Shown in pieces: positions 1 to 19,883 of a stretch of DNA of 64,000 nucleotides. This DNA comes from the human T2T-CHM13v2.0 reference genome, Homo sapiens. The stretch lies in the NCBI GenBank assembly GCA_009914755.4, contig CP068257.2:11104001-11168000 (forward strand), read 5' to 3'. Position numbers and translations under genes: made by a program. How positions within the stretch are numbered: the first letter of the stretch is position 1; every line of letters begins with the position of its first letter. Below the pieces are notes generated by a model. The model did not search any database, was not told the origin of the DNA, and saw only the letters and a list, made by a program, of their open reading frames with translations.

Positions 1-282
1 AAAAATAGAGTTTCAAAGCTGCTCTGTAAAAAGAAAGGTTCCACTCTGTTAGCTGAGTACACACATCACAAACTTGTTTCTGAGAAACCTTCTGTCTCGT
101 TTTTATGGGAAGATATTTACTTTTCCACTGTAGGCATCAAAGCGCTCCAAATGTCCACATCCAGATACTCCAGAACGAGTGTTTCAAACCTGCTCTATGA
201 AAGGGAATCTTCAACTCTATGAGTTGAATGCAGAATCAGAAAGAAATTTCTGAGAATGCTGCTGTCTACCTTTTATTTGAAT

Positions 283-299
283 TCCCGCTTCCAACGAAA
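283..299 (-). promoter_or_regulatory. CENP-B box, HOR monomer 2 (intact)
   Basis: + strand TCCCGCTTCCAACGAAA, which is the reverse complement of the 17-bp CENP-B box nTTCGnnnnAnnCGGGn with all essential positions present. Confidence 0.9.
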
Positions 300-624
300 T
301 CCTCCAAGCTATCCAAATATCCACCTGCATTTTCCACAAAAAGAGTGTTTCAAAACTGCTCTATCAATAGAAATGTTCAACTCCTTTGGCTGGGTACACA
401 CATCACAAACAAGTTTCTGAGAATGCTTCTGTCTAGTTTTTATGGGAAGACGTTCCCTTTTTCACCAAAGGCATCAAAGCGCTCCAAATGTCCACTTCCA
501 GACACTACAAAAAGAGTGTTTCAAACGTGCTCTAAGAAAGCGAATGTTCAACTCTGTGACTTGAATGCAGATATCACAAAGTAGTTTCTGAGAGGGCTTC
601 TGTCTAGATTTTAGATGATGATAT

Positions 625-641
625 TCCCGTTTCCAACGAAA
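625..641 (-). promoter_or_regulatory. CENP-B box, monomer 4 (intact)
   Basis: TCCCGTTTCCAACGAAA. Confidence 0.9.
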
Positions 642-962
642 TCATTAGAGCTATCCAAATATCCACTTACAGTTTCTACAAAAAGAGTGTTTCCAAACTG
701 CTGCATCAAAAGAGAGGTTCCACTCTGTTAGCCGAGTACACACATCACAAACTTGTTTCTCAGAATCCTTCTGTCTCGTTTTTATGGGAAGATATTTACT
801 TTTTCACCGTAGGCATCAAAGCGCTCCAAATGTCCACATCCAGATACTCCAGAAAGAGTGTTTCAAACCTGCTCTATGAAAGGGAATCTTCAACTCTATG
901 AGTTGAATGCAGACATCAGAAAGAAATTTCTGAGAATGCTGCTGTCTACCTTTTATTTGAAT

Positions 963-979
963 TCCCGCTTCCAACGAAA
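963..979 (-). promoter_or_regulatory. CENP-B box, monomer 6 (intact)
   Basis: TCCCGCTTCCAACGAAA. Confidence 0.9.
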
Positions 980-1135
980 TCCTCCAAGCTATCCAAATAT
1001 CCACTTGCAGATTCCACAAAAAGAGTGTTTCAAAACTGCTCTCTATCAATGGCAAAGTTCAACTCTGTTAGTTGAGGACACATATCACCAACAAGTTTCT
1101 GAGAATGCTTCTGTCTATTTTTTATGGGAAGATAT

Positions 1136-1152
1136 TTCCTTTTTCACCGTAG
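1136..1152 (+). promoter_or_regulatory. pJalpha motif (exact match to TTCCTTTTYCACCRTAG), monomer 7
   Basis: TTCCTTTTTCACCGTAG lies at the monomer position that holds the CENP-B box in even-numbered monomers. m1, m3, m5 and m9 carry 1-3-mismatch versions ('ttacttttccactgtag', 'ttccctttttcaccaaag', 'ttactttttcaccgtag', 'ttccttttcaccaaag'). Confidence 0.75.
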
Positions 1153-1302
1153 GCGTCAAGGCGATCGAAATGTCCACTTCCACAAACTACAAAAAGAGTG
1201 TTTCAAACCTGCTCTATGAAAGGCCATGTTCATCTCTATGAGTTGAATGGAAATATCCGAAAGAAATTTCTGGGAATGCTGCTGTCTAGTGTTTATACGA
1301 AT

Positions 1303-1319
1303 TCCCGCTTCCAACGAAA
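1303..1319 (-). promoter_or_regulatory. CENP-B box, monomer 8 (intact)
   Basis: TCCCGCTTCCAACGAAA. Confidence 0.9.
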
Positions 1320-1643
1320 TCCTCAAAGCAATCCAAATATCCACTTGCAGAATCCACAAAAAGAGTGTTTCAAAACTGCTCTATCAATAGAAAGGTTCAA
1401 CTCTTTTAGTTGAGTACACACATCACAAACAAGTTTCTGAGAATGCTTCTGTCTGGCTTTTATTGGAAGACGTTTCCTTTTCACCAAAGGCATCAAAGCG
1501 CTCCAAATGTCCACTTCCAGATTCTTCCAAAAGAGTGTTTCAAACGTGGTCGAAGTAAGGGAATGTTCAACTCTGTGACTTGAATGCAGATATCACCAAG
1601 TAGTTTCTAATAGTGCTTCTGTCTACATTTTAGATGATGATAT

Positions 1644-1660
1644 TCCCGTTTCCAACGAAA
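1644..1660 (-). promoter_or_regulatory. CENP-B box, monomer 10 (intact)
   Basis: TCCCGTTTCCAACGAAA. Confidence 0.9.
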
Positions 1661-1814
1661 TCGTTAGAGCTATCCAAATATCCAGTTACAGTTTCTACCA
1701 AAAGGGTGTTTCCAAATTGCTGCATCAAAAGAAAGGTTCAACTCTGTTAGTTGAGGACACACATCACAAAGAAGTTTGTGAGAATGCTTCTGTCTAGATT
1801 TTGTATGACGATAT

Positions 1815-1831
1815 TCCCTTTTCCAACGATA
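1815..1831 (-). promoter_or_regulatory. Degenerate CENP-B box, monomer 11 (predicted non-binding)
   Basis: TCCCTTTTCCAACGATA. Both essential blocks are hit (CCCG->CCCT and CGAA->CGAT). This form is conserved in all 36 units. Confidence 0.8.
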
Positions 1832-1869
1832 TCGTTAAAGCAATCTAAATATCAATTTGCAGAATCCAC

Positions 1870-3738
1870 AAAAATAGAGTTTCAAAGCTGCTCTGTAAAA
1901 AGAAAGGTTCCACTCTGTTAGCTGAGTACACACATCACAAACTTGTTTCTGAGAAACCTTCTGTCTCGTTTTTATGGGAAGATATTTACTTTTCCACTGT
2001 AGGCATCAAAGCGCTCCAAATGTCCACATCCAGATACTCCAGAACGAGTGTTTCAAACCTGCTCTATGAAAGGGAATCTTCAACTCTATGAGTTGAATGC
2101 AGAATCAGAAAGAAATTTCTGAGAATGCTGCTGTCTACCTTTTATTTGAATTCCCGCTTCCAACGAAATCCTCCAAGCTATCCAAATATCCACCTGCATT
2201 TTCCACAAAAAGAGTGTTTCAAAACTGCTCTATCAATAGAAATGTTCAACTCCTTTGGCTGGGTACACACATCACAAACAAGTTTCTGAGAATGCTTCTG
2301 TCTAGTTTTTATGGGAAGACGTTCCCTTTTTCACCAAAGGCATCAAAGCGCTCCAAATGTCCACTTCCAGACACTACAAAAAGAGTGTTTCAAACGTGCT
2401 CTAAGAAAGCGAATGTTCAACTCTGTGACTTGAATGCAGATATCACAAAGTAGTTTCTGAGAGGGCTTCTGTCTAGATTTTAGATGATGATATTCCCGTT
2501 TCCAACGAAATCATTAGAGCTATCCAAATATCCACTTACAGTTTCTACAAAAAGAGTGTTTCCAAACTGCTGCATCAAAAGAGAGGTTCCACTCTGTTAG
2601 CCGAGTACACACATCACAAACTTGTTTCTCAGAATCCTTCTGTCTCGTTTTTATGGGAAGATATTTACTTTTTCACCGTAGGCATCAAAGCGCTCCAAAT
2701 GTCCACATCCAGATACTCCAGAAAGAGTGTTTCAAACCTGCTCTATGAAAGGGAATCTTCAACTCTATGAGTTGAATGCAGACATCAGAAAGAAATTTCT
2801 GAGAATGCTGCTGTCTACCTTTTATTTGAATTCCCGCTTCCAACGAAATCCTCCAAGCTATCCAAATATCCACTTGCAGATTCCACAAAAAGAGTGTTTC
2901 AAAACTGCTCTCTATCAATGGCAAAGTTCAACTCTGTTAGTTGAGGACACATATCACCAACAAGTTTCTGAGAATGCTTCTGTCTATTTTTTATGGGAAG
3001 ATATTTCCTTTTTCACCGTAGGCGTCAAGGCGATCGAAATGTCCACTTCCACAAACTACAAAAAGAGTGTTTCAAACCTGCTCTATGAAAGGCCATGTTC
3101 ATCTCTATGAGTTGAATGGAAATATCCGAAAGAAATTTCTGGGAATGCTGCTGTCTAGTTTTTATATGAATTCCGGCTTCCAACGAAATCCTCAAAGCAA
3201 TCCAAATATCCACTTGCAGAATCCACAAAAAGAGTGTTTCAAAACTGCTCTATCAATAGAAAGGTTCAACTCTTTTAGTTGAGTACACACATCACAAACA
3301 AGTTTCTGAGAATGCTTCTGTCTGGCTTTTATTGGAAGACGTTTCCTTTTCACCAAAGGCATCAAAGCGCTCCAAATGTCCACTTCCAGATTCTTCCAAA
3401 AGAGTGTTTCAAACGTGCTCGAAGTAAGGGAATGTTCTACTCTGTGACTTGAATGCAGATATCACCAAGTAGTTTCTAATAGTGCTTCTGTCTAGATTTT
3501 AGATGATGATATTCCCGTTTCCAACGAAATCGCTAGAGCTATCCAAATATCCAGTTACAGTTTCTACCAAAAGGGTGTTTCCAAATTGCTGCATCAAAAG
3601 AAAGGTTCAACTCTGTTAGTTGAGGACACACATCACAAAGAAGTTTGTGAGAATGCTTCTGTCTAGATTTTGTATGACGATATTCCCTTTTCCAACGATA
3701 TCGTTAAAGCAATCTAAATATCAATTTGCAGAATCCAC
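1870..3738 (-). repeat. HOR unit 2 (11-mer, 1869 bp), near-identical to unit 1
   Basis: Same anchor 1869 bp downstream. Shares the 'gcagaatcag' and 'gccgag' markers. The m8 CENP-B box is mutated CCCG->CCGG at 3175. Confidence 0.9.
3172..3188 (-). promoter_or_regulatory. Mutated CENP-B box (CCCG->CCGG), unit 2 monomer 8
   Basis: TCCGGCTTCCAACGAAA. Private to unit 2; the EcoRI site GAATTC just upstream is retained. Confidence 0.8.
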
Positions 3739-5607
3739 AAAAATAGAGTTTCAAAGCTGCTCTGTAAAAAGAAAGGTTCCACTCTGTTAGCTGAGTACAC
3801 ACATCACAAACTTGTTTCTCAGAATCCTTCTGTCTCGTTTTTATGGGAAGATACTTACTTTTCCACCGTAGGCATCAAAGCGCTCCAAATGTCCACATCC
3901 AGATACTCCAGAACGAGTGTTTCAAACCTGCTCTATGAAAGGGAATCTTCAACTCTATGAGTTGAATGCAGACATCAGAAAGAAATTTCTGAGAATGCTG
4001 CTGTCTACCTTTTATTTGAATTCCCGCTTCCAACGAAATCCTCCAAGCTATCCAAATATCCACCTGCATTTTCCACAACAAGAGTGTTTCAAAACTGCTC
4101 TATCAATAGAAATGTTCAACTCCTTTGGCTGGGTACACACATCACAAACAAGTTTCTGAGAATGCTTCTGTCTAGTTTTTATGGGAAGACGTTCCCTTTT
4201 TCACCAAAGGCATCAAAGCGCTCCAAATGTCCACTTCCAGACACTACAAAAAGAGTGTTTCCAACGTGCTCTAAGAAAGCGAATGTTCAACTCTGTGACT
4301 TGAATGCAGATATCACAAAGTAGTTTCTGAGAGGGCTTCTGTCTAGATTTTAGATGATGATATTCCCGTTTCCAACAAAATCATTAGAGCTTCCAAATAT
4401 CCACTTACAGTTTCTACAAAAAGAGTGTTTCCAAACTGCTGCATCAAAAGAGAGGTTCCACTCTGTTAGCTGAGTACACACATCACAAACTTGTTTCTCA
4501 GAATCCTTCTGTCTCGTTTTTATGGGAAGATATTTACTTTTTCACCGTAGGCATCAAAGCGCTCCAAATGTCCACATCCAGATACTCCAGAAAGAGTGTT
4601 TCAAACCTGCTCTATGAAAGGGAATCTTCAACTCTATGAGTTGAATGCAGACATCAGAAAGAAATTTCTGAGAATGCTGCTGTCTACCTTTTATTTGAAT
4701 TCCCGCTTCCAACGAAATCCTCCAAGCTATCCAAATATCCACTTGCAGATTCCACAAAAAGAGTGTTTCAAAACTGCTCTCTATCAATGGCAAAGTTCAA
4801 CTCTGTTAGTTGAGGACACATATCACCAACAAGTTTCTGAGAATGCTTCTGTCTATTTTTTATGGGAAGATATTTCCTTTTTCACCGTAGGCGTCAAGGC
4901 GATCGAAATGTCCACTTCCACAAACTACAAAAAGAGTGTTTCAAACCTGCTCTATGAAAGGCCATGTTCATCTCTATGAGTTGAATGGAAATATCCGAAA
5001 GAAATTTCTGGGAATGCTGCTGTCTAGTGTTTATACGAATTCCCGCTTCCAACGAAATCCTCAAAGCAATCCAAATATCCACTTGCAGAATCCACAAAAA
5101 GAGTGTTTCAAAACTGCTCTATCAATAGAAAGGTTCAACTCTTTTAGTTGAGTACACACATCACGAACAAGTTTCTGAGAATGCTTCTGTCTGGCTTTTA
5201 TTGGAAGACGTTTCCTTTTCACCAAAGGCATCAAAGCGCTCCAAATGTCCACTTCCAGATTCTTCCAAAAGAGTGTTTCAAACGTGCTCAAAGTAAGGGA
5301 ATGTTCAACTCTGTGACTTGAATGCAGATATCACCAAGTAGTTTCTAATAGTGCTTCTGTCTAGATTTTAGATGATGATATTCCCGTTTCCAACGAAATC
5401 GTTAGAGCTATCCAAATATCCAGTTACAGTTTCTACCAAAAGGGTGTTTCCAAATTGCTGCATCAAAAGAAAGGTTCAACTCTGTTAGTTGAGGACACAC
5501 ATCACAAAGAAGTTTGTGAGAATGCTTCTGTCTAGATTTTGTATGACGATATTCCCTTTTCCAACGATATCGTTAAAGCAATCTAAATATCAATTTGCAG
5601 AATCCAC
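3739..5607 (-). repeat. HOR unit 3 (11-mer, 1869 bp)
   Basis: Anchor at 3739. m4 box CGAA->CAAA (4364-4380, 'agagcttccaaat' variant). m3 'gtttccaacgtgctc' variant. Confidence 0.9.
4364..4380 (-). promoter_or_regulatory. Mutated CENP-B box (CGAA->CAAA), monomer 4 of the B-type haplotype
   Basis: TCCCGTTTCCAACAAAA. The same lesion is present in units 3, 5, 11, 13, 15, 19, 23, 26 and 30. Confidence 0.8.
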
Positions 5608-7477
5608 AAAAATAGAGTTTCAAAGCTGCTCTGTAAAAAGAAAGGTTCCACTCTGTTAGCTGAGTACACACATCACAAACTTGTTTCTGAGAATCCTTCT
5701 GTCTCGTTTTTATGGGAAGATATTTACTTTTCCACCGTAGGCATCAAAGCGCTCCAAATGTCCACATCCAGATACTCCAGAACGAGTGTTTCAAACCTGC
5801 TCTATGAAAGGGAATCTTCAACTCTATGAGTTGAATGCAGACATCAGAAAGAAATTTCTGAGAATGCTGCTGTCTACCTTTTATTTGAATTCCCGCTTCC
5901 AACGAAATCCTCCAAGCTATCCAAATATCCACTTGCATTTTCCACAACAAGAGTGTTTCAAAACTGCTCTATCAATAGAAATGTTCAACTCCTTTGGCTG
6001 GGTACACACATCACAAACAAGTTTCTGAGAATGCTTCTGTCTAGTTTTTATGGGAAGACATTCCCTTTTTCACCAAAGGCATCAAAGCGCTCCAAATGTC
6101 CACTTCCAGACACTACAAAAAGAGTGTTTCAAACGTGCTCTAAGAAAGCGAATGTTCAACTCTGTGACTTGAATGCAGATATCACAAAGTAGTTTCTGAG
6201 AGTGCTTCTGTCTAGATTTTAGATGATGATATTCCCGTTTCCAAAGAAATCATTAGAGCTATCCAAATATCCACTTACAGTTTCTACAAAAAGAGTGTTT
6301 CCAAACTGCTGCATCAAAAGAGAGGTTCCACTCTGTTAGCTGAGTACACACATCACAAACTTGTTTCTCAGAATCCTTCTGTCTCGTTTTTATGGGAAGA
6401 TATTTACTTTTTCACCGTAGGCATCAAAGCGCTCCAAATGTCCACATCCAGATACTCCAGAAAGAGTGTTTCAAACCTGCTCTATGAAAGGGAATCTTCA
6501 ACTCTATGAGTTGAATGCAGACATCAGAAAGAAATTTCTGAGAATGCTGCTGTCTACCTTTTATTTGAATTCCCGCTTCCAACGAAATCCTCCAAGCTAT
6601 CCAAATATCCACTTGCAGATTCCACAAAAAGAGTGTTTCAAAACTGCTCTCTATCAATGGCAAAGTTCAACTCTGTTAGTTGAGGACACATATCACCAAC
6701 AAGTTTCTGAGAATGCTTCTGTCTATTTTTTATGGGAAGATATTTCCTTTTTCACCGTAGGCGTCAAGGCAATCGAAATGTCCACTTCCGCAAACTACAA
6801 AAAGAGTGTTTCAAACCTGCTCTATGAAAGGCCATGTTCATCTCTATGAGTTGAATGGAAATATCCGAAAGAAATTTCTGGGAATGCTGCTGTCTAGTTT
6901 TTATATGAATTCCCGCTTCCAACGAAATCCTCAAAGCAATCCAAATATCCACTTGCAGAATCCACAAAAAGAGTGTTTCAAAACTGCTCTATCAATAGAA
7001 AGGTTCAACTCTTTTAGTTGAGTACACACATCACAAACAAGTTTCTGAGAATGCTTCTGTCTGGCTTTTATTGGAAGACGTTTCCTTTTCACCAAAGGCA
7101 TCAAAGCGCTCCAAATGTCCACTTCCAGATTCTTCCAAAAGAGTGTTTCAAACGTGGTCGAAGTAAGGGAATGTTCAACTCTGTGACTTGAATGCAGATA
7201 TCACCAAGTAGTTTCTAATAGTGCTTCTGTCTAGATTTTAGATGATGATATTCCCGTTTCCAACGAAATCGTTAGAGCTATCCAAATATCCAGTTACAGT
7301 TTCTACCAAAAGGGTGTTTCCAAATTGCTGCATCAAAAGAAAGGTTCAACTCTGTTAGTTGAGGACACACATCACAAAGAAGTTTGTGAGAATGCTTCTG
7401 TCTAGATTTTGTATGACGATATTCCCTTTTCCAACGATATCGTTAAAGCAATCTAAATATCAATTTGCAGAATCCAC
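5608..7477 (-). repeat. HOR unit 4 (11-mer, 1870 bp)
   Basis: Anchor at 5608. m4 box CGAA->AGAA (6233-6249). m10 'cgtggtcgaag' as in unit 1. Confidence 0.9.
6233..6249 (-). promoter_or_regulatory. Mutated CENP-B box (CGAA->AGAA), unit 4 monomer 4
   Basis: TCCCGTTTCCAAAGAAA. Confidence 0.8.
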
Positions 7478-9344
7478 AAAAATAGAGTTTCAAAGCTGCT
7501 CTGTAAAAAGAAAGGTTCCACTCTGTTAGCTGAGTACACACATCACAAACTTGTTTCTGAGAAACCTTCTGTCTCGTTTTTATGGGAAGATATTTACTTT
7601 TCCACTGTAGGCATCAAAGCGCTCCAAATGTCCACATCCAGATACTCCAGAACGAGTGTTTCAAACCTGCTCTATGAAAGGGAATCTTCAACTCTATGAG
7701 TTGAATGCAGAATCAGAAAGAAATTTCTGAGAATGCTGCTGTCTACCTTTTATTTGAATTCCCGCTTCCAACGAAATCCTCCAAGCTATCCAAATATCCA
7801 CCTGCATTTTCCACAACAAGAGTGTTTCAAAACTGCTCTATCAATAGAAATGTTCAACTCCTTTGGCTGGGTACACACATCACAAACAAGTTTCTGAGAA
7901 TGCTTCTGTCTAGTTTTTATGGGAAGACGTTCCCTTTTTCACCAAAGGCATCAAAGCGCTCCAAATGTCCACTTCCAGACACTACAAAAAGAGTGTTTCA
8001 AACGTGCTCTAAGAAAGCGAATGTTCAACTCTGTGACTTGAATGCACATATCACAAAGTAGTTTCTGAGAGGGCTTCTGTCTAGATTTTAGATGATGATA
8101 TTCCCGTTTCCAACAAAATCATTAGAGCTTCCAAATATCCACTTACAGTTTCTACAAAAAGAGTGTTTCCAAACTGCTGCATCAAAAGAGAGGTTCCACT
8201 CTGTTAGCTGAGTACACACATCACAAACTTGTTTCTCAGAATCCTTCTGTCTCGTTTTTATGGGAAGATTATACTTTTTCACCGTAGGCATCAAAGCGCT
8301 CCAAATGTCCACATCCAGATACTCCAGAAAGAGTGTTTCAAACCTGCTCTATGAAAGGGAATCTTCAACTCTATGAGTTGAATGCAGACATCAGAAAGAA
8401 ATTTCTGAGAATGCTGCTGTCTACCTTTTATTTGAATTCCCGCTTCCAACGAAATCCTCCAAGCTATCCAAATATCCACTTGCAGATTCCACAAAAAGAG
8501 TGTTTCAAAACTGCTCTCTATCAATGGCAAAGTTCAACTCTGTTAGTTGAGGACACATATCACCAACAAGTTTCTGAGAATGCTTCTGTCTATTTTTTAT
8601 GGGAAGATATTTCCTTTTTCACCGTAGGCGTCAAGGCGATCGAAATGTCCACTTCCACAAACTACAAAAAGAGTGTTTCAAACCTGCTCTATGAAAGGCC
8701 ATGTTCATCTCTATGAGTTGAATGGAAATATCCGAAAGAAATTTCTGGGAATGCTGCTGTCTAGTGTTTATACGAATTCCCGCTTCCAACGAAATCCTCA
8801 AAGCAATCCAAATATCCACTTGCAGAATCCACAAAAAGAGTGTTTCAAAACTGCTCTATCAATAGAAAGGTTCAACTCTTTTAGTTGAGTACACACATCA
8901 CGAACAAGTTTCTGAGAATGCTTCTGTCTGGCTTTTATTGGAAGACGTTTCCTTTTCACCAAAGGCATCAAAGCGCTCCAAATGTCCACTTCCAGATTCT
9001 TCCAAAAGAGTGTTTCAAACGTGCTCAAAGTAAGGGAATGTTCAACTCTGTGACTTGAATGCAGATATCACCAAGTAGTTTCTAATAGTGCTTCTGTCTA
9101 CATTTTAGATGATGATATTCCCGTTTCCAACGAAATCGTTAGAGCTATCCAAATATCCAGTTACAGTTTCTACCAAAAGGGTGTTTCCAAATTGCTGCAT
9201 CAAAAGAAAGGTTCAACTCTGTTAGTTGAGGACACACATCACAAAGAAGTTTGTGAGAATGCTTCTGTCTAGATTTTGTATGACGATATTCCCTTTTCCA
9301 ACGATATCGTTAAAGCAATCTAAATATCAATTTGCAGAATCCAC
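7478..9344 (-). repeat. HOR unit 5 (11-mer, 1867 bp; B1-like haplotype)
   Basis: Anchor at 7478. 'gcacatatc' (AHITK) marker. m4 box CGAA->CAAA (8102-8118). Indel 'gggaagattatac' at 8262-8274. m2 1-bp deletion 'gcagaatcag' shared with units 1-2. Confidence 0.9.
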
Positions 9345-11214
9345 AAAAATAGAGTTTCAAAGCTGCTCTGTAAAAAGAAAGGTTCCACTCTGTTAGCTGA
9401 GTACACACATCACAAACTTGTTTCTGAGAATCCTTCTGTCTCGTTTTTATGGGAAGATATTTACTTTTCCACCGTAGGCATCAAAGCGCTCCAAATGTCC
9501 ACATCCAGATACTCCAGAACGAGTGTTTCAAACCTGCTCTATGAAAGGGAATCTTCAACTCTATGAGTTGAATGCAGACATCAGAAAGAAATTTCTGAGA
9601 ATGCTGCTGTCTACCTTTTATTTGAATTCCCGCTTCCAACGAAATCCTCCAAGCTATCCAAATATCCACCTGCATTTTCCACAACAAGAGTGTTTCAAAC
9701 CTGCTCTATCAATAGAAATGTTCAACTCCTTTGGCTGGGTACACACATCACAAACAAGTTTCTGAGAATGCTTCTGTCTAGTTTTTATGGGAAGACGTTC
9801 CCTTTTTCACCAAAGGCATCAAAGCGCTCCAAATGTCCACTTCCAGACACTACAAAAAGAGTGTTTCAAACGTGCTCTAAGAAAGCGAATGTTCAACTCT
9901 GTGACTTGAATGCAGATATCACAAAGTAGTTTCTGAGAGGGCTTCTGTCTAGATTTTAGATGATGATATTCCCGTTTCCAACGAAATCATTAGAGCTATC
10001 CAAATATCCACTTACAGTTTCTACAAAAAGAGTGTTTCCAAACTGCTGCATCAAAAGAGAGGTTCCACTCTGTTAGCTGAGTACACACATCACAAACTTG
10101 TTTCTCAGAATCCTTCTGTCTCGTTTTTATGGGAAGATATTTACTTTTTCACCGTAGGCATCAAAGCGCTCCAAATGTCCACATCCAGATACTCCAGAAA
10201 GAGTGTTTCAAACCTGCTCTATGAAAGGGAATCTTCAACTCTATGAGTTGAATGCAGACATCAGAAAGAAATTTCTGAGAATGCTGCTGTCTACCTTTTA
10301 TTTGAATTCCCGCTTCCAACGAAATCCTCCAAGCTATCCAAATATCCACTTGCAGATTCCACAAAAAGAGTGTTTCAAAACTGCTCTCTATCAATGGCAA
10401 AGTTCAACTCTGTTAGTTGAGGACACATATCACCAACAAGTTTCTGAGAATGCTTCTGTCTATTTTTTATGGGAAGATATTTCCTTTTTCACCGTAGGCG
10501 TCAAGGCGATCGAAATGTCCACTTCCACAAACTACAAAAAGAGTGTTTCAAACCTGCTCTATGAAAGGCCATGTTCATCTCTATGAGTTGAATGGAAATA
10601 TCCGAAAGAAATTTCTGGGAATGCTGCTGTCTAGTGTTTATACGAATTCCCGCTTCCAACGAAATCCTCAAAGCAATCCAAATATCCACTTGCAGAATCC
10701 ACAAAAAGAGTGTTTCAAAACTGCTCTATCAATAGAAAGGTTCAACTCTTTTAGTTGAGTACACACATCACGAACAAGTTTCTGAGAATGCTTCTGTCTG
10801 GCTTTTATTGGAAGACGTTTCCTTTTCACCAAAGGCATCAAAGCGCTCCAAATGTCCACTTCCAGATTCTTCCAAAAGAGTGTTTCAAACGTGCTCAAAG
10901 TAAGGGAATGTTCAACTCTGTGACTTGAATGCAGATATCACCAAGTAGTTTCTAATAGTGCTTCTGTCTACATTTTAGATGATGATATTCCCGTTTCCAA
11001 CGAAATCGTTAGAGCTATCCAAATATCCAGTTACAGTTTCTACCAAAAGGGTGTTTCCAAATTGCTGCATCAAAAGAAAGGTTCAACTCTGTTAGTTGAG
11101 GACACACATCACAAAGAAGTTTGTGAGAATGCTTCTGTCTAGATTTTGTATGACGATATTCCCTTTTCCAACGATATCGTTAAAGCAATCTAAATATCAA
11201 TTTGCAGAATCCAC
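9345..11214 (-). repeat. HOR unit 6 (11-mer, 1870 bp)
   Basis: Anchor at 9345. m3 'caaacctgctctatcaatag' variant (9701-9720). Five intact boxes. Confidence 0.9.
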
Positions 11215-13084
11215 AAAAATAGAGTTTCAAAGCTGCTCTGTAAAAAGAAAGGTTCCACTCTGTTAGCTGAGTACACACATCACAAACTTGTTTCTGAGAA
11301 TCCTTCTGTCTCGTTTTTATGGGAAGATATTTACTTTTCCACCGTAGGCATCAAAGCGCTCCAAATGTCCACATCCAGATACTCCAGAACGAGTGTTTCA
11401 AACCTGCTCTATGAAAGGGAATCTTCAACTCTATGAGTTGAATGCAGACATCAGAAAGAAATTTCTGAGAATGCTGCTGTCTACCTTTTATTTGAATTCC
11501 CGCTTCCAACGAAATCCTCCAAGCTATCCAAATATCCACCTGCATTTTCCACAACAAGAGTGTTTCAAAACTGCTCTATCAATAGAAATGTTCAACTCCT
11601 TTGGCTGGGTACACACATCACAAACAAGTTTCTGAGAATGCTTCTGTCTAGTTTTTATGGGAAGACGTTCCCTTTTTCACCAAAGGCATCAAAGCGCTCC
11701 AAATGTCCACTTCCAGACACTACAAAAAGAGTGTTTCAAACGTGCTCTAAGAAAGCGAATGTTCAACTCTGTGACTTGAATGCAGATATCACAAAGTAGT
11801 TTCTGAGAGGGCTTCTGTCTAGATTTTAGATGATGATATTCCCGTTTCCAACGAAATCATTAGAGCTATCCAAATATCCACTTACAGTTTCTACAAAAAG
11901 AGTGTTTCCAAACTGCTGCATCAAAAGAGAGGTTCCACTCTGTTAGCTGAGTACACACATCACAAACTTGTTTCTCAGAATCCTTCTGTCTCGTTTTTAT
12001 GGGAAAATATTTACTTTTTCACCGTAGGCATCAAAGCGCTCCAAATGTCCACATCCAGATACTCCAGAAAGAGTGTTTCAAACCTGCTCTATGAAAGGGA
12101 ATCTTCAACTCTATGAGTTGAATGCAGACATCAGAAAGAAATTTCTGAGAATGCTGCTGTCTACCTTTTATTTGAATTCCCGCTTCCAACGAAATCCTCC
12201 AAGCTATCCAAATATCCACTTGCAGATTCCACAAAAAGAGTGTTTCAAAACTGCTCTCTATCAATGGCAAAGTTCAACTCTGTTAGTTGAGGACACATAT
12301 CACCAACAAGTTTCTGAGAATGCTTCTGTCTATTTTTTATGGGAAGATATTTCCTTTTTCACCGTAGGCGTCAAGGCGATCGAAATGTCCACTTCCACAA
12401 ACTACAAAAAGAGTGTTTCAAACCTGCTCTATGAAAGGCCATGTTCATCTCTATGAGTTGAATGGAAATATCCGAAAGAAATTTCTGGGAATGCTGCTGT
12501 CTAGTGTTTATACGAATTCCCGCTTCCAACGAAATCCTCAAAGCAATCCAAATATCCACTTGCAGAATCCACAAAAAGAGTGTTTCAAAACTGCTCTATC
12601 AATAGAAAGGTTCAACTCTTTTAGTTGAGTACACACATCACAAACAAGTTTCTGAGAATGCTTCTGTCTGGCTTTTATTGGAAGACGTTTCCTTTTCACC
12701 AAAGGCATCAAAGCGCTCCAAATGTCCACTTCCAGATTCTTCCAAAAGAGTGTTTCAAACGTGCTCAAAGTAAGGGAATGTTCAACTCTGTGACTTGAAT
12801 GCAGATATCACCAAGTAGTTTCTAATAGTGCTTCTGTCTAGATTTTAGATGATGATATTCCCGTTTCCAACGAAATCGTTAGAGCTATCCAAATATCCAG
12901 TTACAGTTTCTACAAAAAGAGTGTTTCCAAACTGCTGCATCAAAAGAAAGGTTCAACTCTGTTAGTTGAGGACACACATCACAAAGAAGTTTGTGAGAAT
13001 GCTTCTGTCTAGATTTTGTATGACGATATTCCCTTTTCCAACGATATCGTTAAAGCAATCTAAATATCAATTTGCAGAATCCAC
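11215..13084 (-). repeat. HOR unit 7 (11-mer, 1870 bp)
   Basis: Anchor at 11215. 'gggaaaatatttac' variant near 12001. Five intact boxes. Confidence 0.9.
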
Positions 13085-14954
13085 AAAAATAGAGTTTCAA
13101 AGCTGCTCTGTAAAAATAAAAGTTCCACTCTGTTAGCTGAGTACACACATCACAAACTTGTTTCTGAGAATCCTTCTGTCTCGTTTTTATGGGAAGATAT
13201 TTACTTTTTCACCGTAGGCATCAAAGCGCTCCAAATGTCCACATCCAGATACTCCAGAAAGACTGTTTCAAACCTGCTCTATGAAAGGGAATCTTCAACT
13301 CTATGAGTTGAATGCAGACATCAGAAAGAAATTTCTGAGAATGCTGCTGTCTACCTTTTATTTGAATTCCCGCTTCCAACGAAATCCTCCAAGCTATCCA
13401 AATATCCACTTGCATTTTCCACAACAAGAGTGTTTCAAAACTGCTCTATCAATAGAAATGTTCAACTCCTTTAGCTGGGTACACACATCACAAACAAGTT
13501 TCTGAGAATGCTTCTGTCTAGTTTTTATGGGAAGACGTTCCCTTTTTCACCAAAGGCATCAAAGCGCTCCAAATGTCCACTTCCAGACACTACAAAAAGA
13601 GTGTTTCAAACGTGCTCTAAGAAAGCGAATGTTCAACTCTGTGACTTGAATGCAGATATCACAAAGTAGTTACTGAGAGGGCTTCTGTCTAGATTTTAGA
13701 TGATGATATTCCCGTTTCCAACGAAATCATTAGAGCTATCCAAATATCCACTTACAGTTTCTACAAAAAGAGTGTTTCCAAACTGCTGCATCAAAAGAGA
13801 GGTTCCACTCTGTTAGCCGAGTACACACATCACAAACTTGTTTCTCAGAATCCTTCTGTCTCGTTTTTATGGGAAGATATTTACTTTTTCACCGTAGGCA
13901 TCAAAGCGCTCCAAATGTCCACATCCAGATACTCCAGAAAGAGTGTTTCAAACCTGCTCTATGAAAGGGAATCTTCAACTCTATGAGTTGAATGCAGACA
14001 TCAGAAAGAAATTTCTGAGAATGCTGCTGTCTACCTTTTATTTGAATTCCCGCTTCCAACGAAATCCTCCAAGCTATCCAAATATCCACTTGCAGATTCC
14101 ACAAAAAGAGTGTTTCAAAACTGCTCTCTATCAATGGCAAAGTTCAACTCTGTTAGTTGAGGACACATATCACCAACAAGTTTCTGAGAATGCTTCTGTC
14201 TATTTTTTATGGGAAGATATTTCCTTTTTCACCGTAGGCGTCAAGGCGATCGAAATGTCCACTTCCACAAACTACAAAAAGAGTGTTTCAAACCTGCTCT
14301 ATGAAAGGCCATGTTCATCTCTATGAGTTGAATGGAAATATCCGAAAGAAATTTCTGGGAATGCTGCTGTCTAGTGTTTATACGAATTCCCGCTTCCAAC
14401 GAAATCCTCAAAGCAATCCAAATATCCACTTGCAGAATCCACAAAAAGAGTGTTTCAAAACTGCTCTATCAATAGAAAGGTTCAACTCTTTTAGTTGAGT
14501 ACACACATCACGAACAAGTTTCTGAGAATGCTTCTGTCTGGCTTTTATTGGAAGACGTTTCCTTTTCACCAAAGGCATCAAAGCGCTCCAAATGTCCACT
14601 TCCAGATTCTTCCAAAAGAGTGTTTCAAACGTGCTCAAAGTAAGGGAATGTTCAACTCTGTGACTTGAATGCAGATATCACCAAGTAGTTTCTAATAGTG
14701 CTTCTGTCTACATTTTAGATGATGATATTCCCTTTTCCAACGAAATCGTTAGAGCTATCCAAATATCCAGTTACAGTTTCTACCAAAAGGGTGTTTCCAA
14801 ATTGCTGCATCAAAAGAAAGGTTCAACTCTGTTAGTTGAGGACACACATCACAAAGAAGTTTGTGAGAATGCTTCTGTCTAGATTTTGTATGACGATATT
14901 CCCTTTTCCAACGATATCGTTAAAGCAATCTAAATATCAATTTGCAGAATCCAC
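13085..14954 (-). repeat. HOR unit 8 (11-mer, 1870 bp)
   Basis: Anchor at 13085. m1 variants 'taaaaataaaagttcc' and 'ccagaaagactg' (m5-like patch). m5 'gccgag'. m10 box CCCG->CCCT (14729-14745). Confidence 0.9.
14729..14745 (-). promoter_or_regulatory. Mutated CENP-B box (CCCG->CCCT), monomer 10. First of 16 units carrying this lesion.
   Basis: TCCCTTTTCCAACGAAA. The same change is in units 8, 11, 13, 15, 17, 19, 21, 23, 25, 26, 28, 30, 32, 33 and 34. Confidence 0.8.
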
Positions 14955-16144
14955 AAAAATAGAGTTTCAAAGCTGCTCTGTAAAAAGAAAGGTTCCACTC
15001 TGTTAGCTGAGTACACACATCACAAACTTGTTTCTGAGAATCCTTCTGTCTCGTTTTTATGGGAAGATATTTACTTTTTCACCGTAGGCATCAAAGCGCT
15101 CCAAATGTCCACATCCAGATACTCCAGAACGAGTGTTTCAAACCTGCTCTATGAAAGGGAATCTTCAACTCTATGAGTTGAATGCAGACATCAGAAAGAA
15201 ATTTCTGAGAATGCTGCTGTCTACCTTTTATTTGAATTCCCGCTTCCAACGAAATCCTCCAAGCTATCCAAATATCCACTTGCAGATTCCACAAAAAGAG
15301 TGTTTCAAAACTGCTCTCTATCAATGGCAAAGTTCAACTCTGTTAGTTGAGGACACATATCACCAACAAGTTTCTGAGAATGCTTCTGTCTATTTTTTAT
15401 GGGAAGATATTTCCTTTTTCAGCGTAGGCGTCAAGGCGATCGAAATGTCCACTTCCACAAACTACAAAAAGAGTGTTTCAAACCTGCTCTATGAAAGGCC
15501 ATGTTCATCTCTATGAGTTGAATGGAAATATCCGAAAGAAATTTCTGGGAATGCTGCTGTCTAGTGTTTATACGAATTCCCGCTTCCAACGAAATCCTCA
15601 AAGCAATCCAAATATCCACTTGCAGAATCCACAAAAAGAGTGTTTCAAAACTGCTCTATCAATAGAAAGGTTCAACTCTTTTAGTTGAGTACACACATCA
15701 CGAACAAGTTTCTGAGAATGCTTCTGTCTGGCTTTTATTGGAAGACGTTTCCTTTTCACCAAAGGCATCAAAGCGCTCCAAATGTCCACTTCCAGATTCT
15801 TCCAAAAGAGTGTTTCAAACGTGCTCAAAGTAAGGGAATGTTCAACTCTGTGACTTGAATGCAGATATCACCAAGTAGTTTCTAATAGTGCTTCTGTCTA
15901 CATTTTAGATGATGATATTCCCGTTTCCAACGAAATCGTTAGAGCTATCCAAATATCCAGTTACAGTTTCTACCAAAAGGGTGTTTCCAAATTGCTGCAT
16001 CAAAAGAAAGGTTCAACTCTGTTAGTTGAGGACACACATCACAAAGAAGTTTGTGAGAATGCTTCTGTCTAGATTTTGTATGACGATATTCCCTTTTCCA
16101 ACGATATCGTTAAAGCAATCTAAATATCAATTTGCAGAATCCAC
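14955..16144 (-). repeat. HOR unit 9: 7-mer deletion variant (1190 bp; m1, m2/6 fusion, m7-m11)
   Basis: Anchor spacing is 1190 bp instead of 1870, i.e. 4 x 170 bp are missing. After m1 the next monomer ends with the m6-type 'ccacttgcagattccacaaaaagag' and runs straight into m7 ('ctctctatcaatggcaaag'). Confidence 0.88.
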
Positions 16145-18014
16145 AAAAATAGAGTTTCAAAGCTGCTCTGTAAAAAGAAAGGTTCCACTCTGTTAGCTGA
16201 GTACACACATCACAAACTTGTTTCTGAGAATCCTTCTGTCTCGTTTTTATGGGAAGATATTTACTTTTCCACCGTAGGCATCAAAGCGCTCCAAATGTCC
16301 ACATCCAGATACTCCAGAACGAGTGTTTCAAACCTGCTCTATGAAAGGGAATCTTCAACTCTATGAGTTGAATGCAGACATCAGAAAGAAATTTCTGAGA
16401 ATGCTGCTGTCTACCTTTTATTTGAATTCCCGCTTCCAACGAAATCCTCCAAGCTATCCAAATATCCACCTGCATTTTCCACAACAAGAGTGTTTCAAAA
16501 CTGCTCTATCAATAGAAATGTTCAACTCCTTTGGCTGGGTACACACATCACAAACAAGTTTCTGAGAATGCTTCTGTCTAGTTTTTATGGGAAGACGTTC
16601 CCTTTTTCACCAAAGGCATCAAAGCGCTCCAAATGTCCACTTCCAGACACTACAAAAAGAGTGTTTCAAACGTGCTCTAAGAAAGCGAATGTTCAACTCT
16701 GTGACTTGAATGCAGATATCACAAAGTAGTTTCTGAGAGGGCTTCTGTCTAGATTTTAGATGATGATATTCCCGTTTCCAACGAAATCATTAGAGCTATC
16801 CAAATATCCACTTACAGTTTCTACAAAAAGAGTGTTTCCAAACTGCTGCATCAAAAGAGAGGTTCCACTCTGTTAGCTGAGTACACACATCACAAACTTG
16901 TTTCTCAGAATCCTTCTGTCTCGTTTTTATGGGAAGATATTTACTTTTTCACCGTAGGCATCAAAGCGCTCCAAATGTCCACATCCAGATACTCCAGAAA
17001 GAGTGTTTCAAACCTGCTCTATGAAAGGGAATCTTCAACTCTATGAGTTGAATGCAGACATCAGAAAGAAATTTCTGAGAATGCTGCTGTCTACCTTTTA
17101 TTTGAATTCCCGCTTCCAACGAAATCCTCCAAGCTATCCAAATATCCACTTGCAGATTCCACAAAAAGAGTGTTTCAAAACTGCTCTCTATCAATGGCAA
17201 AGTTCAACTCTGTTAGTTGAGGACACATATCACCAACAAGTTTCTGAGAATGCTTCTGTCTATTTTTTATGGGAAGATATTTCCTTTTTCACCGTAGGCG
17301 TCAAGGCGATCGAAATGTCCACTTCCACAAACTACAAAAAGAGTGTTTCAAACCTGCTCTATGAAAGGCCATGTTCATCTCTATGAGTTGAATGGAAATA
17401 TCCGAAAGAAATTTCTGGGAATGCTGCTGTCTAGTGTTTATACGAATTCCCGCTTCCAACGTAATCCTCAAAGCAATCCAAATATCCACTTGCAGAATCC
17501 ACAAAAAGAGTGTTTCAAAACTGCTCTATCAATAGAAAGGTTCAACTCTTTTAGTTGAGTACACACATCACGAACAAGTTTCTGAGAATGCTTCTGTCTG
17601 GCTTTTATTGGAAGACGTTTCCTTTTCACCAAAGGCATCAAAGCGCTCCAAATGTCCACTTCCAGATTCTTCCAAAAGAGTGTTTCAAACGTGCTCAAAG
17701 TAAGGGAATGTTCAACTCTGTGACTTGAATGCAGATATCACCAAGTAGTTTCTAATAGTGCTTCTGTCTACATTTTAGATGATGATATTCCCGTTTCCAA
17801 CGAAATCGCTAGAGCTATCCAAATATCCAGTTACAGTTTCTACCAAAAGGGTGTTTCCAAATTGCTGCATCAAAAGAAAGGTTCAACTCTGTTAGTTGAG
17901 GACACACATCACAAAGAAGTTTGTGAGAATGCTTCTGTCTAGGTTTTGTATGACGATATTCCCTTTTCCAACGATATCGTTAAAGCAATCTAAATATCAA
18001 TTTGCAGAATCCAC
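16145..18014 (-). repeat. HOR unit 10 (11-mer, 1870 bp)
   Basis: Anchor at 16145. m8 'cgtaatcctcaaag', m10 'cgctagag', m11 'ctaggttttg'. m3 'ggcatcaaag' with 'gcagatatc'. Confidence 0.9.
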
Positions 18015-19883
18015 AAAAATAGAGTTTCAAAGCTGCTCTGTAAAAAGAAAGGTTCCACTCTGTTAGCTGAGTACACACATCACAAACTTGTTTCTCAGAA
18101 TCCTTCTGTCTCGTTTTTATGGGAAGATACTTACTTTTCCACCGTAGGCATCAAAGCGCTCCAAATGTCCACATCCAGATACTCCAGAACGAGTGTTTCA
18201 AACCTGCTCTATGAAAGGGAATCTTCAACTCTATGAGTTGAATGCAGACATCAGAAAGAAATTTCTGAGAATGCTGCTGTCTACCTTTTATTTGAATTCC
18301 CGCTTCCAACGAAATCCTCCAAGCTATCCAAATATCCACCTGCATTTTCCACAACAAGAGTGTTTCAAAACTGCTCTATCAATAGAAATGTTCAACTCCT
18401 TTGGCTGGGTACACACATCACAAACAAGTTTCTGAGAATGCTTCTGTCTAGTTTTTATGGGAAGACGTTCCCTTTTTCACCAAAGGCATCAAAGCGCTCC
18501 AAATGTCCACTTCCAGACACTACAAAAAGAGTGTTTCAAACGTGCTCTAAGAAAGCGAATGTTCAACTCTGTGACTTGAATGCACATATCACAAAGTAGT
18601 TTCTGAGAGGGCTTCTGTCTAGATTTTAGATGATGATATTCCCGTTTCCAACAAAATCATTAGAGCTTCCAAATATCCACTTACAGTTTCTACAAAAAGA
18701 GTGTTTCCAAACTGCTGCATCAAAAGAGAGGTTCCACTCTGTTAGCTGAGTACACACATCACAAACTTGTTTCTCAGAATCCTTCTGTCTCGTTTTTATG
18801 GGAAGATATTTACTTTTTCACCGTAGGCATCAAAGCGCTCCAAATGTCCACATCCAGATACTCCAGAAAGAGTGTTTCAAACCTGCCCTATGAAAGGGAA
18901 TCTTCAACTCTATGAGTTGAATGCAGACATCAGAAAGAAATTTCTGAGAATGCTGCTGTCTACCTTTTATTTGAATTCCCGCTTCCAACGAAATCCTCCA
19001 AGCTATCCAAATATCCACTTGCAGATTCCACAAAAAGAGTGTTTCAAAACTGCTCTCTATCAATGGCAAAGTTCAACTCTGTTAGTTGAGGACACATATC
19101 ACCAACAAGTTTCTGAGAATGCTTCTGTCTATTTTTTATGGGAAGATATTTCCTTTTTCACCGTAGGCGTCAAGGCGATCGAAATGTCCACTTCCACAAA
19201 CTACAAAAAGAGTGTTTCAAACCTGCTCTATGAAAGGCCATGTTCATCTCTATGAGTTGAATGGAAATATCCGAAAGAAATTTCTGGGAATGCTGCTGTC
19301 TAGTGTTTATACGAATTCCCGCTTCCAACGAAATCCTCAAAGCAATCCAAATATCCACTTGCAGAATCCACAAAAAGAGTGTTTCAAAACTGCTCTATCA
19401 ATAGAAAGGTTCAACTCTTTTAGTTGAGTACACACATCACGAACAAGTTTCTGAGAATGCTTCTGTCTGGCTTTTATTGGAAGACGTTTCCTTTTCAACA
19501 AAGGCATCAAAGCGCTCCAAATGTCCACTTCCAGATTCTTCCAAAAGAGTGTTTCAAACGTGCTCAAAGTAAAGGAATGTTCAACTCTGTGACTTGAATG
19601 CAGATATCACCAAGTAGTTTCTAATAGTGCTTCTGCCTACATTTTAGATGATGATATTCCCTTTTCCAACGAAATCGTTAGAGCTATCCAAATATCCAGT
19701 TACAGTTTCTACCAAAAGGGTGTTTCCAAATTGCTGCATCAAAAGAAAGGTTCAACTCTGTTAGTTGAGGACACACATCACAAAGAAGTTTGTGAGAATG
19801 CTTCTGTCTAGATTTTGTATGACGATATTCCCTTTTCCAACGATATCGTTAAAGCAATCTAAATATCAATTTGCAGAATCCAC
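18015..19883 (-). repeat. HOR unit 11 (11-mer, 1869 bp; B0 haplotype)
   Basis: m1 'tctcagaatcc' and 'gatacttac'. 'gcacatatc'. m4 box CAAA (18640-18656). m6 'cctgccctatg'. m9 'ttcaacaaagg'. m10 'ctgcctac' with box CCCT. Confidence 0.9.

What the first reader, a model, noticed from the sequence alone, without database searches (positions are those of the whole stretch)
1..16144. Left 16 kb is a distinctly more heterogeneous, presumably older, flank of the same array
Units 1-9 each carry private or sparsely shared variants. These include the 1-bp deletion 'gcagaatcag' in units 1, 2 and 5, 'cgtggtcgaag' in units 1, 2 and 4, three different m4 box lesions, 'taaaaataaaagttcc', and the unique 7-mer. 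They show no clean super-period. Units 10-36 fall into a few near-identical haplotypes. The transition is sharp, at ~16145 and again at ~29232. This matches the layered model of centromere arrays, where a young homogenised core is flanked by progressively diverged HOR copies. Unit 5 (7478-9344) already carries the complete B1 signature, including the 'gattatac' indel at 8262-8274. So the B1 haplotype predates the super-repeat and exists as a dispersed copy in the older flank.
Basis: partly seen in the sequence, partly recalled or inferred. Interest (0 to 1): 0.5.

Follow-up and report, generated by a model that had tools for sequence, protein, structure and literature searches.

The report
Unamplified stretch inside chromosome 21 centromere array
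The left 16 kb is an ordinary, not recently duplicated stretch in the middle of the human chromosome 21 centromeric alpha-satellite array, next to a recently amplified block; this pattern is already described for this same assembled centromere.

Summary
The window is human alpha satellite of the D21Z1/D13Z1 11-monomer repeat. It can be placed at about T2T-CHM13 chr21:11.104-11.168 Mb. Its one 7-mer and six 9-mer variant units have exactly the published spacings: 14277, 7136, 7136, 5266, 7136 and 7138 bp.

Units 1-9 are all different from each other (nearest neighbour 2-10 differences, 19 singletons, longest exact repeat 1.5 kb or less). Units 10-36 fall into three near-identical haplotypes arranged in 3.7-kb and 7.1-kb super-repeats (exact repeats 2-6.6 kb).

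The contrast is weaker than claimed. Mean identity is 99.27% on the left and 99.5% on the right. Haplotypes A and B differ from each other as much as the left units do.

The left block is not an array flank. It lies about 140 kb inside a 339-kb array. Its 0.73% divergence is below the published array mean of 0.90%. It keeps more intact CENP-B boxes than the amplified block.

Unit 5 is a mosaic with 7 of 13 B1 markers, not a complete B1 copy.

"Older" is supported only in one sense: the left units coalesce deeper and branch basally. Twelve of 29 left-only substitutions match paralogous monomers, which means either retained ancestral states or gene conversion.

This is known biology and of low interest.

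The parts
1..14954 (.). Units 1-8: eight complete 11-monomer HOR copies (1867-1870 bp), all different from one another. This is the 'heterogeneous' block of the finding.
   Evidence: Pairwise distance is 7-21 differences. No exact repeat is longer than 1513 bp.
14955..16144 (.). Unit 9: a 7-monomer variant (1190 bp). It is an 11-mer that lost 680 bp by out-of-register exchange between the near-identical segments at columns 36-330 and 716-1010. The junction lies between unit offsets 176 and 326 (about window 15130-15280).
   Evidence: It corresponds to the single variant copy listed at chr21:11,118,525 in PMC12385485.
13209..13410 (.). Patch in unit 8 carrying the monomer-5/6 states at three (125T, 176A, 326T) of the only four sites that separate columns 36-330 from their paralogue shifted by 680 bp. 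It is most simply one conversion or out-of-register exchange tract. It lies next to the 7-mer, which shares 125T.
   Evidence: (paralogue differences at columns 82, 125, 176 and 326 only).
12914..12932 (.). Unit 7: three 'private' changes within 19 bp (columns 1700A, 1706A, 1718C). They make this stretch identical to the paralogous fourth monomer.
7478..9344 (.). Unit 5 is a mosaic. The 5' end resembles units 1 and 2 (87A, 129T, 235del). The middle part (about 8047-8274, including 'gattatac') resembles haplotype B. The 3' part is consensus.
16145..29231 (.). Units 10-16: alternating A and B haplotypes with a 3739-bp period. A 6612-bp exact repeat occurs at 16700 and 20439.
29232..63043 (.). 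Units 17-35: five copies of a super-repeat headed by a 9-mer (C-A-B-A, 7136 bp). One copy is shortened to 5266 bp.
   Evidence: The spacings equal the published chr21 coordinates.
45032..46899 (.). Unit 26: a recombinant, haplotype A at the 5' end and B1 at the 3' end, with the crossover between columns 472 and 571. It explains the 5266-bp copy as loss of one unit by unequal exchange.
   Evidence: (variant table).
63044..64000 (.). Unit 36: a 9-mer cut off by the window end. The super-repeat continues past the window.

Best explanation
The window lies in the interior of the human chromosome 21 centromeric alpha-satellite array (D21Z1, the 11-monomer repeat shared with chromosome 13), at about T2T-CHM13 chr21:11.104-11.168 Mb. 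Its right three quarters belong to the array's central block. There, multi-unit segments built from three haplotypes (A, B and the 9-mer C) were copied very recently by unequal exchange, first as A-B pairs and then as C-A-B-A quartets. Later unequal crossovers removed or recombined single units. The left 16 kb simply escaped these recent duplications, so it shows the array's standing diversity. Its units are stem or basal relatives of A and B. They differ through a mix of ordinary point mutations, exchanges between units (mosaics such as unit 5), and changes towards the sequence of paralogous monomers. The paralogue-directed changes are either retained ancestral states or gene conversion between misaligned monomers. 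Misalignment of this same kind produced the adjacent 7-mer. What is shown: the structure, the placement, the haplotypes, the recombinant units and the paralogue-directed bias. What is inferred: the order of events and the conversion mechanism.
For: **Placement.**
- The window's 7-mer and 9-mers start at 14955, 29232, 36368, 43504, 48770, 55906 and 63044.
- Their spacings reproduce the published variant-copy coordinates 11,118,525; 11,132,802; 11,139,938; 11,147,074; 11,152,340; 11,159,476; 11,166,614.
- The ten published consensus monomers match my consensus at 165-170 of about 170 bases.
- The array spans 10,963,339-11,302,559.

**Recent amplification on the right.**
- Units 11 and 13 are identical, as are 12 and 14; 18, 22 and 29; 20 and 27; 24, 31 and 35; and 17, 21, 25 and 32.
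- Exact repeats reach 6612 bp.
- Unit 26 is an A/B1 recombinant that accounts for the 5266-bp copy.

**The left block is array background.**
- Its divergence is 0.73%, against the published array mean of 0.90%.
- CENP-B boxes and CpG density are undiminished.

**Basal position of the left units.** See the rooted tree.

**Paralogue-directed changes.**
- Twelve of 29 left-only substitutions match the paralogue state, against a 3.2% chance expectation (p = 3e-11). None of the 13 right-only alleles does (Fisher p = 0.005).
- They cluster in tracts in units 7, 8 and 2/4.

**Literature.** The most identical segments of chr21 arrays lie in the central section, CHM13 included (PMC13288774). Crossovers build domains while mutation and conversion differentiate them (PMC2853522).
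Against: - The window shows only 64 kb of a 339-kb array. The left units could have near-identical partners further left, for example as part of a super-repeat with a period above 16 kb. In that case the block would be no less 'amplified' than the right.
- The rooting of the tree rests on the paralogue-like states. If those arose by conversion, the basal position of units 4, 7 and 8 is partly an artefact.
- The absolute coordinate offset is uncertain by about 0.6 kb, because the paper's unit phase differs from mine.
- The chr21 versus chr13 assignment rests on the spacing pattern, not on diagnostic bases.
Confidence: 0.75

Rival explanations
1. The left 16 kb is a genuine older evolutionary layer (an older HOR haplotype zone) of the array. 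It was pushed aside by a younger core that expanded in the middle. Its paralogue-like alleles are retained ancestral states.
For: - The left units form a basal grade in the rooted tree.
- Twelve of 29 left-only substitutions equal the ancestral-class state, and no right-only allele does.
- The 9-mer block is central in the array.
- Intra-array layers with slightly lower divergence in the middle are a documented general pattern (PMC11062924).
Against: - The mean identity difference is only 0.2-0.3 percentage points. Haplotypes A and B inside the 'young' zone are as diverged as the left units.
- Left divergence is below the array mean.
- There is no divergence gradient across units 1-8.
- The left units keep more intact CENP-B boxes than the core.
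- The paralogue-like changes occur in tight tracts, and one tract lies beside an out-of-register deletion. That fits conversion at least as well.
- Symmetry was not observed and cannot be tested here.
Confidence: 0.2
2. The contrast is an assembly or polishing artefact. Either collapsed or over-polished repeats make the right side look identical, or uncorrected read errors make the left side look variable.
For: Nothing positive was found. It is considered only because satellite arrays are hard to assemble.
Against: - Left variants are shared between non-adjacent units in consistent combinations, for example 87A/129T/235del in units 1, 2 and 5, and 1292T/1299T in units 2 and 4.
- Most are substitutions rather than homopolymer indels.
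- The right-hand copies still carry structured differences and recombinant units.
- An independent analysis of the same assembly reports the same variant-unit map.
Confidence: 0.02
3. The left-block variants were imported from the near-identical chromosome 13 array (D13Z1) by exchange between acrocentric chromosomes.
For: Only general knowledge supports this. The 11-mer is shared by chr13 and chr21 with minor differences.
Against: No chr13 sequence was available for comparison. The paralogue-directed bias and the link to the neighbouring 7-mer are explained without it.
Confidence: 0.03

Closest known systems
D21Z1/D13Z1 (alpha21-I, S2C13/21H1L) 11-mer array of T2T-CHM13 chromosome 21, as mapped by Gluncic et al. 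2025 (PMC12385485)
   Same: It is the same locus. The consensus monomers match. The single 7-mer and the series of 9-mer variant copies lie at identical spacings. The paper already notes that groups of four, three or two HOR copies were duplicated in the central part.
   Different: The paper classifies copies by monomer composition only. It does not describe the single-base haplotypes A, B and C, the recombinant units or the paralogue-directed variants found here.
Intra-array HOR-haplotype layers ('layered expansions'), Altemose et al. (preprint 10.1101/2021.07.12.452052); evolutionary layers, Logsdon et al. 2024 (PMC11062924)
   Same: A central zone of recently expanded, slightly more homogeneous and more derived HOR haplotypes sits next to less derived copies. 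The rooting method, using ancestral-type monomers, is also the same.
   Different: Those layers are defined over whole arrays, with symmetry on both sides. Here only one edge of the central block is visible, over 16 kb. The identity difference is very small and there is no gradient.
Domain/subdomain model of homogeneous alpha-satellite arrays (Pironon, Puechberty and Roizes 2010, PMC2853522; Smith 1976 unequal crossover)
   Same: Crossovers homogenise and expand local domains, while sporadic mutation and conversion differentiate the copies. This is the mixture seen in this window, and chr21 was one of the chromosomes studied.
   Different: That work used BAC and PCR samples, not a complete array.
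Diverged HOR and monomeric pericentromeric flanks (the classical 'old layers')
   Same: Only the idea that older alpha satellite lies outside younger alpha satellite.
   Different: Those flanks have eroded or lost HOR periodicity and are far more diverged. The left block has intact 11-mer periodicity and 99.3% identity.

Membership tests
Human alpha satellite D21Z1/D13Z1 11-mer HOR (S2C13/21H1L) | Monomers of about 171 bp arranged in a higher-order unit of 11 monomers (about 1.87 kb) | tested here: met
   TRF gives periods of 171 and 338 across 1-63998. The dominant k-mer spacing is 1868-1870 bp, and there are 36 units.
Human alpha satellite D21Z1/D13Z1 11-mer HOR (S2C13/21H1L) | Sequence match to the published chr21 canonical monomers t1-t10 | tested here: met
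   165-170 matches per monomer of about 170 bp against the reverse complement of my consensus. All 11 positions are covered, with t5 used twice as published.
Human alpha satellite D21Z1/D13Z1 11-mer HOR (S2C13/21H1L) | Dimeric (two-class) monomer alternation with CENP-B boxes in one class | tested here: met
   The monomer identity matrix shows two classes, with monomers 10 and 11 in the same class. The consensus has five intact boxes, all in the same class.
Human alpha satellite D21Z1/D13Z1 11-mer HOR (S2C13/21H1L) | Chromosome 21 rather than chromosome 13 copy | tested here: met
   Six consecutive spacings of variant copies equal the CHM13 chr21 coordinates. Diagnostic chr13/chr21 bases were not compared.
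Older evolutionary layer in the layered-expansion model | Lower within-layer identity than the core | tested here: inconclusive
   99.27% against 99.50-99.57%. The permutation p is 0.085 and the ranges nearly coincide. Nearest-neighbour distance and exact-repeat length differ strongly.
Older evolutionary layer in the layered-expansion model | Less derived (basal) position when rooted on ancestral-type monomers | tested here: met
   The left units form a basal grade and the right units fall in two crown clades. The caveat is that the rooting sites may reflect gene conversion.
Older evolutionary layer in the layered-expansion model | Identity falls progressively towards the periphery | tested here: not met
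   Distances from units 1-8 to haplotype A (unit 18) are 12, 15, 12, 16, 14, 7, 12 and 16, with no trend. Only 16 kb is visible.
Older evolutionary layer in the layered-expansion model | Mirror-symmetric counterpart on the other side of the core | not testable with these tools
   The window ends inside the 9-mer block, which continues to about 11,190,740.
Older evolutionary layer in the layered-expansion model | Kinetochore (CENP-A, hypomethylated dip) located relative to the layers | not testable with these tools
   No epigenetic data are available. The literature says the most identical chr21 segment is usually not the hypomethylated region.
Diverged HOR / monomeric pericentromeric flank | Eroded HOR periodicity and divergence far above that of a homogeneous array | tested here: not met
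   Periodicity of 1867-1870 bp is intact and identity is 99.3%. The block lies about 140 kb from the array edge.

The most novel reading that the evidence does not exclude
The extra diversity of the left block is largely produced locally rather than by age. Misaligned pairing between paralogous monomers made the 680-bp deletion of the 7-mer. The same kind of pairing may also have left conversion tracts in the neighbouring units: unit 8 columns 125-326, unit 7 columns 1700-1718, and units 2 and 4 columns 1292-1299. On this reading, out-of-register recombination both reshapes HOR length and drives paralogue-directed sequence change in stretches of the array that are not being homogenised.
Probability: 0.3. 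Interest if true: 0.35.

Novelty: already known. Interest (0 to 1): 0.15.

Why it matters
It matters little beyond bookkeeping. The locus is part of a published, fully assembled centromere. A recently amplified central block bordered by more varied copies is the documented organisation of chr21 arrays and of human centromeres generally.

The useful corrections are these. The left block is array background, not a decayed flank. The difference lies in recent duplication, not in overall divergence.

The one modestly new point is that about 40% of the block's own substitutions point towards paralogous monomers. This could be followed up across the whole array, to separate ancestral retention from inter-monomer gene conversion.

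Tried and rejected
- **MAFFT alignment of all 36 units.** It misplaced the large deletions of the 7-mer and the 9-mers, giving spurious distances of 70-80 differences. I replaced it with a single-gap placement against the consensus.
- **Mean pairwise identity as the discriminator.** It is weak (99.27% against 99.5%, permutation p = 0.085). Nearest-neighbour distance and exact-repeat length are the informative measures.
- **Separating ancestral retention from conversion by looking for donor-specific states in the tracts.** This was not possible. In every tract all candidate donor paralogues carry the same state.
- **Decay signatures on the left.** I looked for loss of CENP-B boxes and CpG depletion and found none.
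- **Published CENP-A or hypomethylation coordinates for the CHM13 chr21 array.** I searched for them and found none in the accessible text. One paper notes that CENP-A was hard to localise on chr21 in all the cell lines it compared.
- **Literature searches.** The first search with hyphenated terms found nothing. One PMC id was not held.

Full report
**What the window is.** The whole 64 kb is alpha satellite with 171-bp monomers and a strong two-monomer period, and its base composition is flat. The spacing of repeated 24-mers peaks at 1868-1870 bp, with side peaks at 1190, 1528, 680, 3739 and 7136 bp. Anchoring on the first 30 bases gives 36 higher-order units. Twenty-nine are complete 11-monomer units of 1867-1870 bp. 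One is a 1190-bp 7-mer (unit 9, 14955-16144). Six are 1528-bp 9-mers (units 17, 21, 25, 28, 32 and the truncated unit 36).

**Where it comes from.** A literature search led to Gluncic et al. 2025 (PMC12385485), an analysis of the T2T-CHM13 chromosome 21 centromere.

- The ten published consensus monomers match my 11-mer consensus (reverse complement) at 165-170 of about 170 bases each. They tile all 11 positions, with their type t5 used twice, as published.
- The paper lists start coordinates of variant copies: one at 11,118,525, then 11,132,802; 11,139,938; 11,147,074; 11,152,340; 11,159,476; 11,166,614.
- The spacings are 14277, 7136, 7136, 5266, 7136 and 7138 bp. These are exactly the spacings of the window's 7-mer and 9-mers (14955, 29232, 36368, 43504, 48770, 55906, 63044).

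The window is therefore CHM13 chr21 from about 11.1036-11.1042 Mb to about 11.168 Mb, in the same orientation. The 0.6-kb uncertainty comes from the different unit phase used in the paper.

The array runs from 10,963,339 to 11,302,559 and holds 182 copies. The finding's 16 kb thus lies about 140-156 kb from the p-side edge, just left of the array midpoint (about 11,132,950). It is not at a flank of the array. The 9-mer-bearing block continues to about 11,190,740, beyond the window.

**Checking the observation.** MAFFT misplaced the large deletions, so I fixed them with a single-gap fit. The 7-mer lacks 680 bp, with an ambiguous junction in columns 82-325. The 9-mers lack 342 bp, with the junction in columns 469-496. 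There are 54 variable columns in all, 50 of them among the complete units.

| Measure | Left (units 1-9) | Right (units 10-36) |
|---|---|---|
| Distinct complete units | 8 of 8 | 14 of 21 |
| Singleton variants | 19 | 2 |
| Minor alleles confined to the domain | 30 | 13 |
| Nearest-neighbour distance (differences) | 2-10 | 0-5 (p = 8.5e-6) |
| Longest exact repeat covering a position | at most 1513 bp up to 16616 | at least 2000 bp over 99% |

Twelve further minor alleles are shared between the two domains. The step in exact-repeat length sits at 16617-16700, inside unit 10.

The details need correcting.

- 'cgtggtcgaag' is in units 1 and 4 only.
- I find two, not three, distinct lesions in the CENP-B box of the fourth monomer.
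- Unit 5 has only 7 of the 13 B1 markers and also carries three unit-1/2 markers.

Mean identity is 99.27% (units 1-8) against 99.50-99.57%, with a permutation p of 0.085. Haplotypes A and B inside the 'homogeneous' zone differ by 14-18 sites, as much as the left units differ from each other at 7-21.

**Anatomy of the right side.** The units fall into three haplotypes:

- A: units 12, 14, 16, 18, 20, 22, 24, 27, 29, 31 and 35, with sub-types.
- B: units 11, 13, 15, 19, 23 and 30.
- C: the 9-mer, a B derivative with a 342-bp deletion and two changes of its own.

Units 10-16 alternate A and B with a 3739-bp period, and a 6612-bp exact repeat occurs at 16700 and 20439. Units 17-35 are C-A-B-A quartets. 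Unit 26 is haplotype A up to column 472 and B1 from column 571. The 5266-bp quartet is therefore a copy of the quartet 17-20 that lost one unit by unequal exchange. Units 33 and 34 are further A/B recombinants. This is the signature of very recent, nested, multi-unit duplication by unequal exchange, and the source paper notes the same pattern of duplication in groups of four, three or two copies.

**What the left side is.**

First, it is not unusually diverged. Its 0.73% is below the 0.90% mean (maximum 2.57%) reported for all canonical copies of this array.

Second, it shows no decay. Left units keep 4-5 of the 5 CENP-B boxes. Haplotype A keeps 4 (5 in units 20 and 27), and haplotypes B and C keep 3. 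CpG density is 17-19 per kb throughout.

Third, its units are relatives of the amplified haplotypes. I built a mock ancestor from the majority state of same-class paralogous monomers, which is the approach used for HOR-haplotype trees in the T2T centromere paper. In a neighbour-joining tree rooted on it, units 4, 7, (1,2), 8 and 6 form a basal grade. Units 3 and 5 lie on the stem of the B clade and unit 10 on the stem of the A clade. All right-hand units fall in those two crown clades. The 13 right-only alleles are all non-paralog-like, and most sit at multiple copies, up to 14.

So 'older' is fair in the sense of deeper coalescence and no recent copying. The B and A lineages themselves are nevertheless old, and most B markers are already scattered over units 3, 5 and 8.

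Twelve of the 29 left-only substitutions change the base to the state carried by paralogous monomers. The expectation for random substitutions is 3.2% (binomial p = 3e-11). None of 13 right-only alleles and none of 10 shared alleles does so (Fisher p = 0.005).

These changes cluster.

- Unit 8 carries 125T, 176A and 326T. These are three of the only four sites that separate columns 36-330 from the paralogue 680 bp downstream.
- Unit 7 carries three changes in 19 bp that make it identical to the fourth monomer.
- Units 2 and 4 share 1292T and 1299T.

Unit 8 lies directly beside the 7-mer. The 680-bp deletion of the 7-mer was made by pairing of exactly those two paralogous segments, with the junction between offsets 176 and 326. 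The 7-mer also shares 125T with unit 8.

These states are either ancestral bases retained in old lineages or products of gene conversion between misaligned monomers. I could not separate the two, because every candidate donor carries the same state. Either way, the count of independent 'private mutations' on the left is smaller than it looks.

**Comparison with what is known.** Several descriptions already cover this.

- Central, most-identical segments in chr21 arrays, explicitly including CHM13 and usually not coinciding with the hypomethylated kinetochore region, are described in PMC13288774 and PMC10925182.
- Intra-array layers of HOR haplotypes, with slightly lower divergence in the middle, are described genome-wide (PMC11062924).
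- The mechanism of crossover-driven domains with differentiation by mutation and conversion was proposed for chr21 among other chromosomes in 2010 (PMC2853522).

The finding is therefore a correct sighting of a known pattern in a published locus, with an over-reading ('flank', 'progressively diverged', 'complete B1 signature').

**Limits.** Only 19% of the array is visible. Symmetry, gradients, possible partners of units 1-8 outside the window, and the CENP-A and methylation profiles could not be examined. I found no published coordinates for the CHM13 chr21 kinetochore site in the accessible texts.

Noticed in passing
window 36-330 vs 716-1010 of every 11-mer unit (e.g. 1905-2199 vs 2585-2879): The HOR contains an internal near-identical duplication. 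Columns 36-330 and 716-1010, offset by 680 bp (four monomers), differ at only 4 sites (82, 125, 176, 326). All four sites are polymorphic among units in the direction of the downstream copy. This segment is the substrate of the 7-mer deletion.
   Followed up: partly
window 45032-46899 (unit 26); 57434-61173 (units 33, 34): These are recombinant units. Unit 26 is haplotype A up to column 472 and B1 from column 571, which explains the 5266-bp short copy of the 7136-bp super-repeat. Units 33 and 34 are haplotype A at the 5' end and B-like at the 3' end, with different crossover points.
   Followed up: partly
CENP-B box positions at unit offsets 285, 627, 965, 1305, 1646 across the window: The recently amplified haplotypes carry fewer intact CENP-B boxes than the unamplified left units. 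Haplotype B and the 9-mer have 3 and haplotype A has 4, against 4-5 on the left. The lesions are 639G>A and 1649G>T in B and 1318A>T in A. Amplification has therefore spread box-defective copies.
   Followed up: partly
window 29700-29730 and equivalent positions in units 21, 25, 28, 32, 36: The 9-mer deletion (342 bp, two monomers) has its junction within columns 469-496 joined to 811-838. This creates a hybrid of monomers 3 and 5. All six copies share it and differ by at most one base, so they derive from a single event.
   Followed up: partly
window 13111-13126 (unit 8): Unit 8 has two substitutions 4 bp apart (columns 33 G>T and 37 G>A, 'taaaaataaaagttcc'). It also has 176A with 179C. These are closely spaced double changes that look like single complex events rather than independent mutations.
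   Followed up: no
whole window, strand: The CENP-B boxes read as their reverse complement on the + strand (CCCG..T....CGAA). The published consensus monomers are the reverse complement of the window, although the published coordinates ascend in the same order as the window. The paper evidently prints monomers in the conventional orientation.
   Followed up: yes
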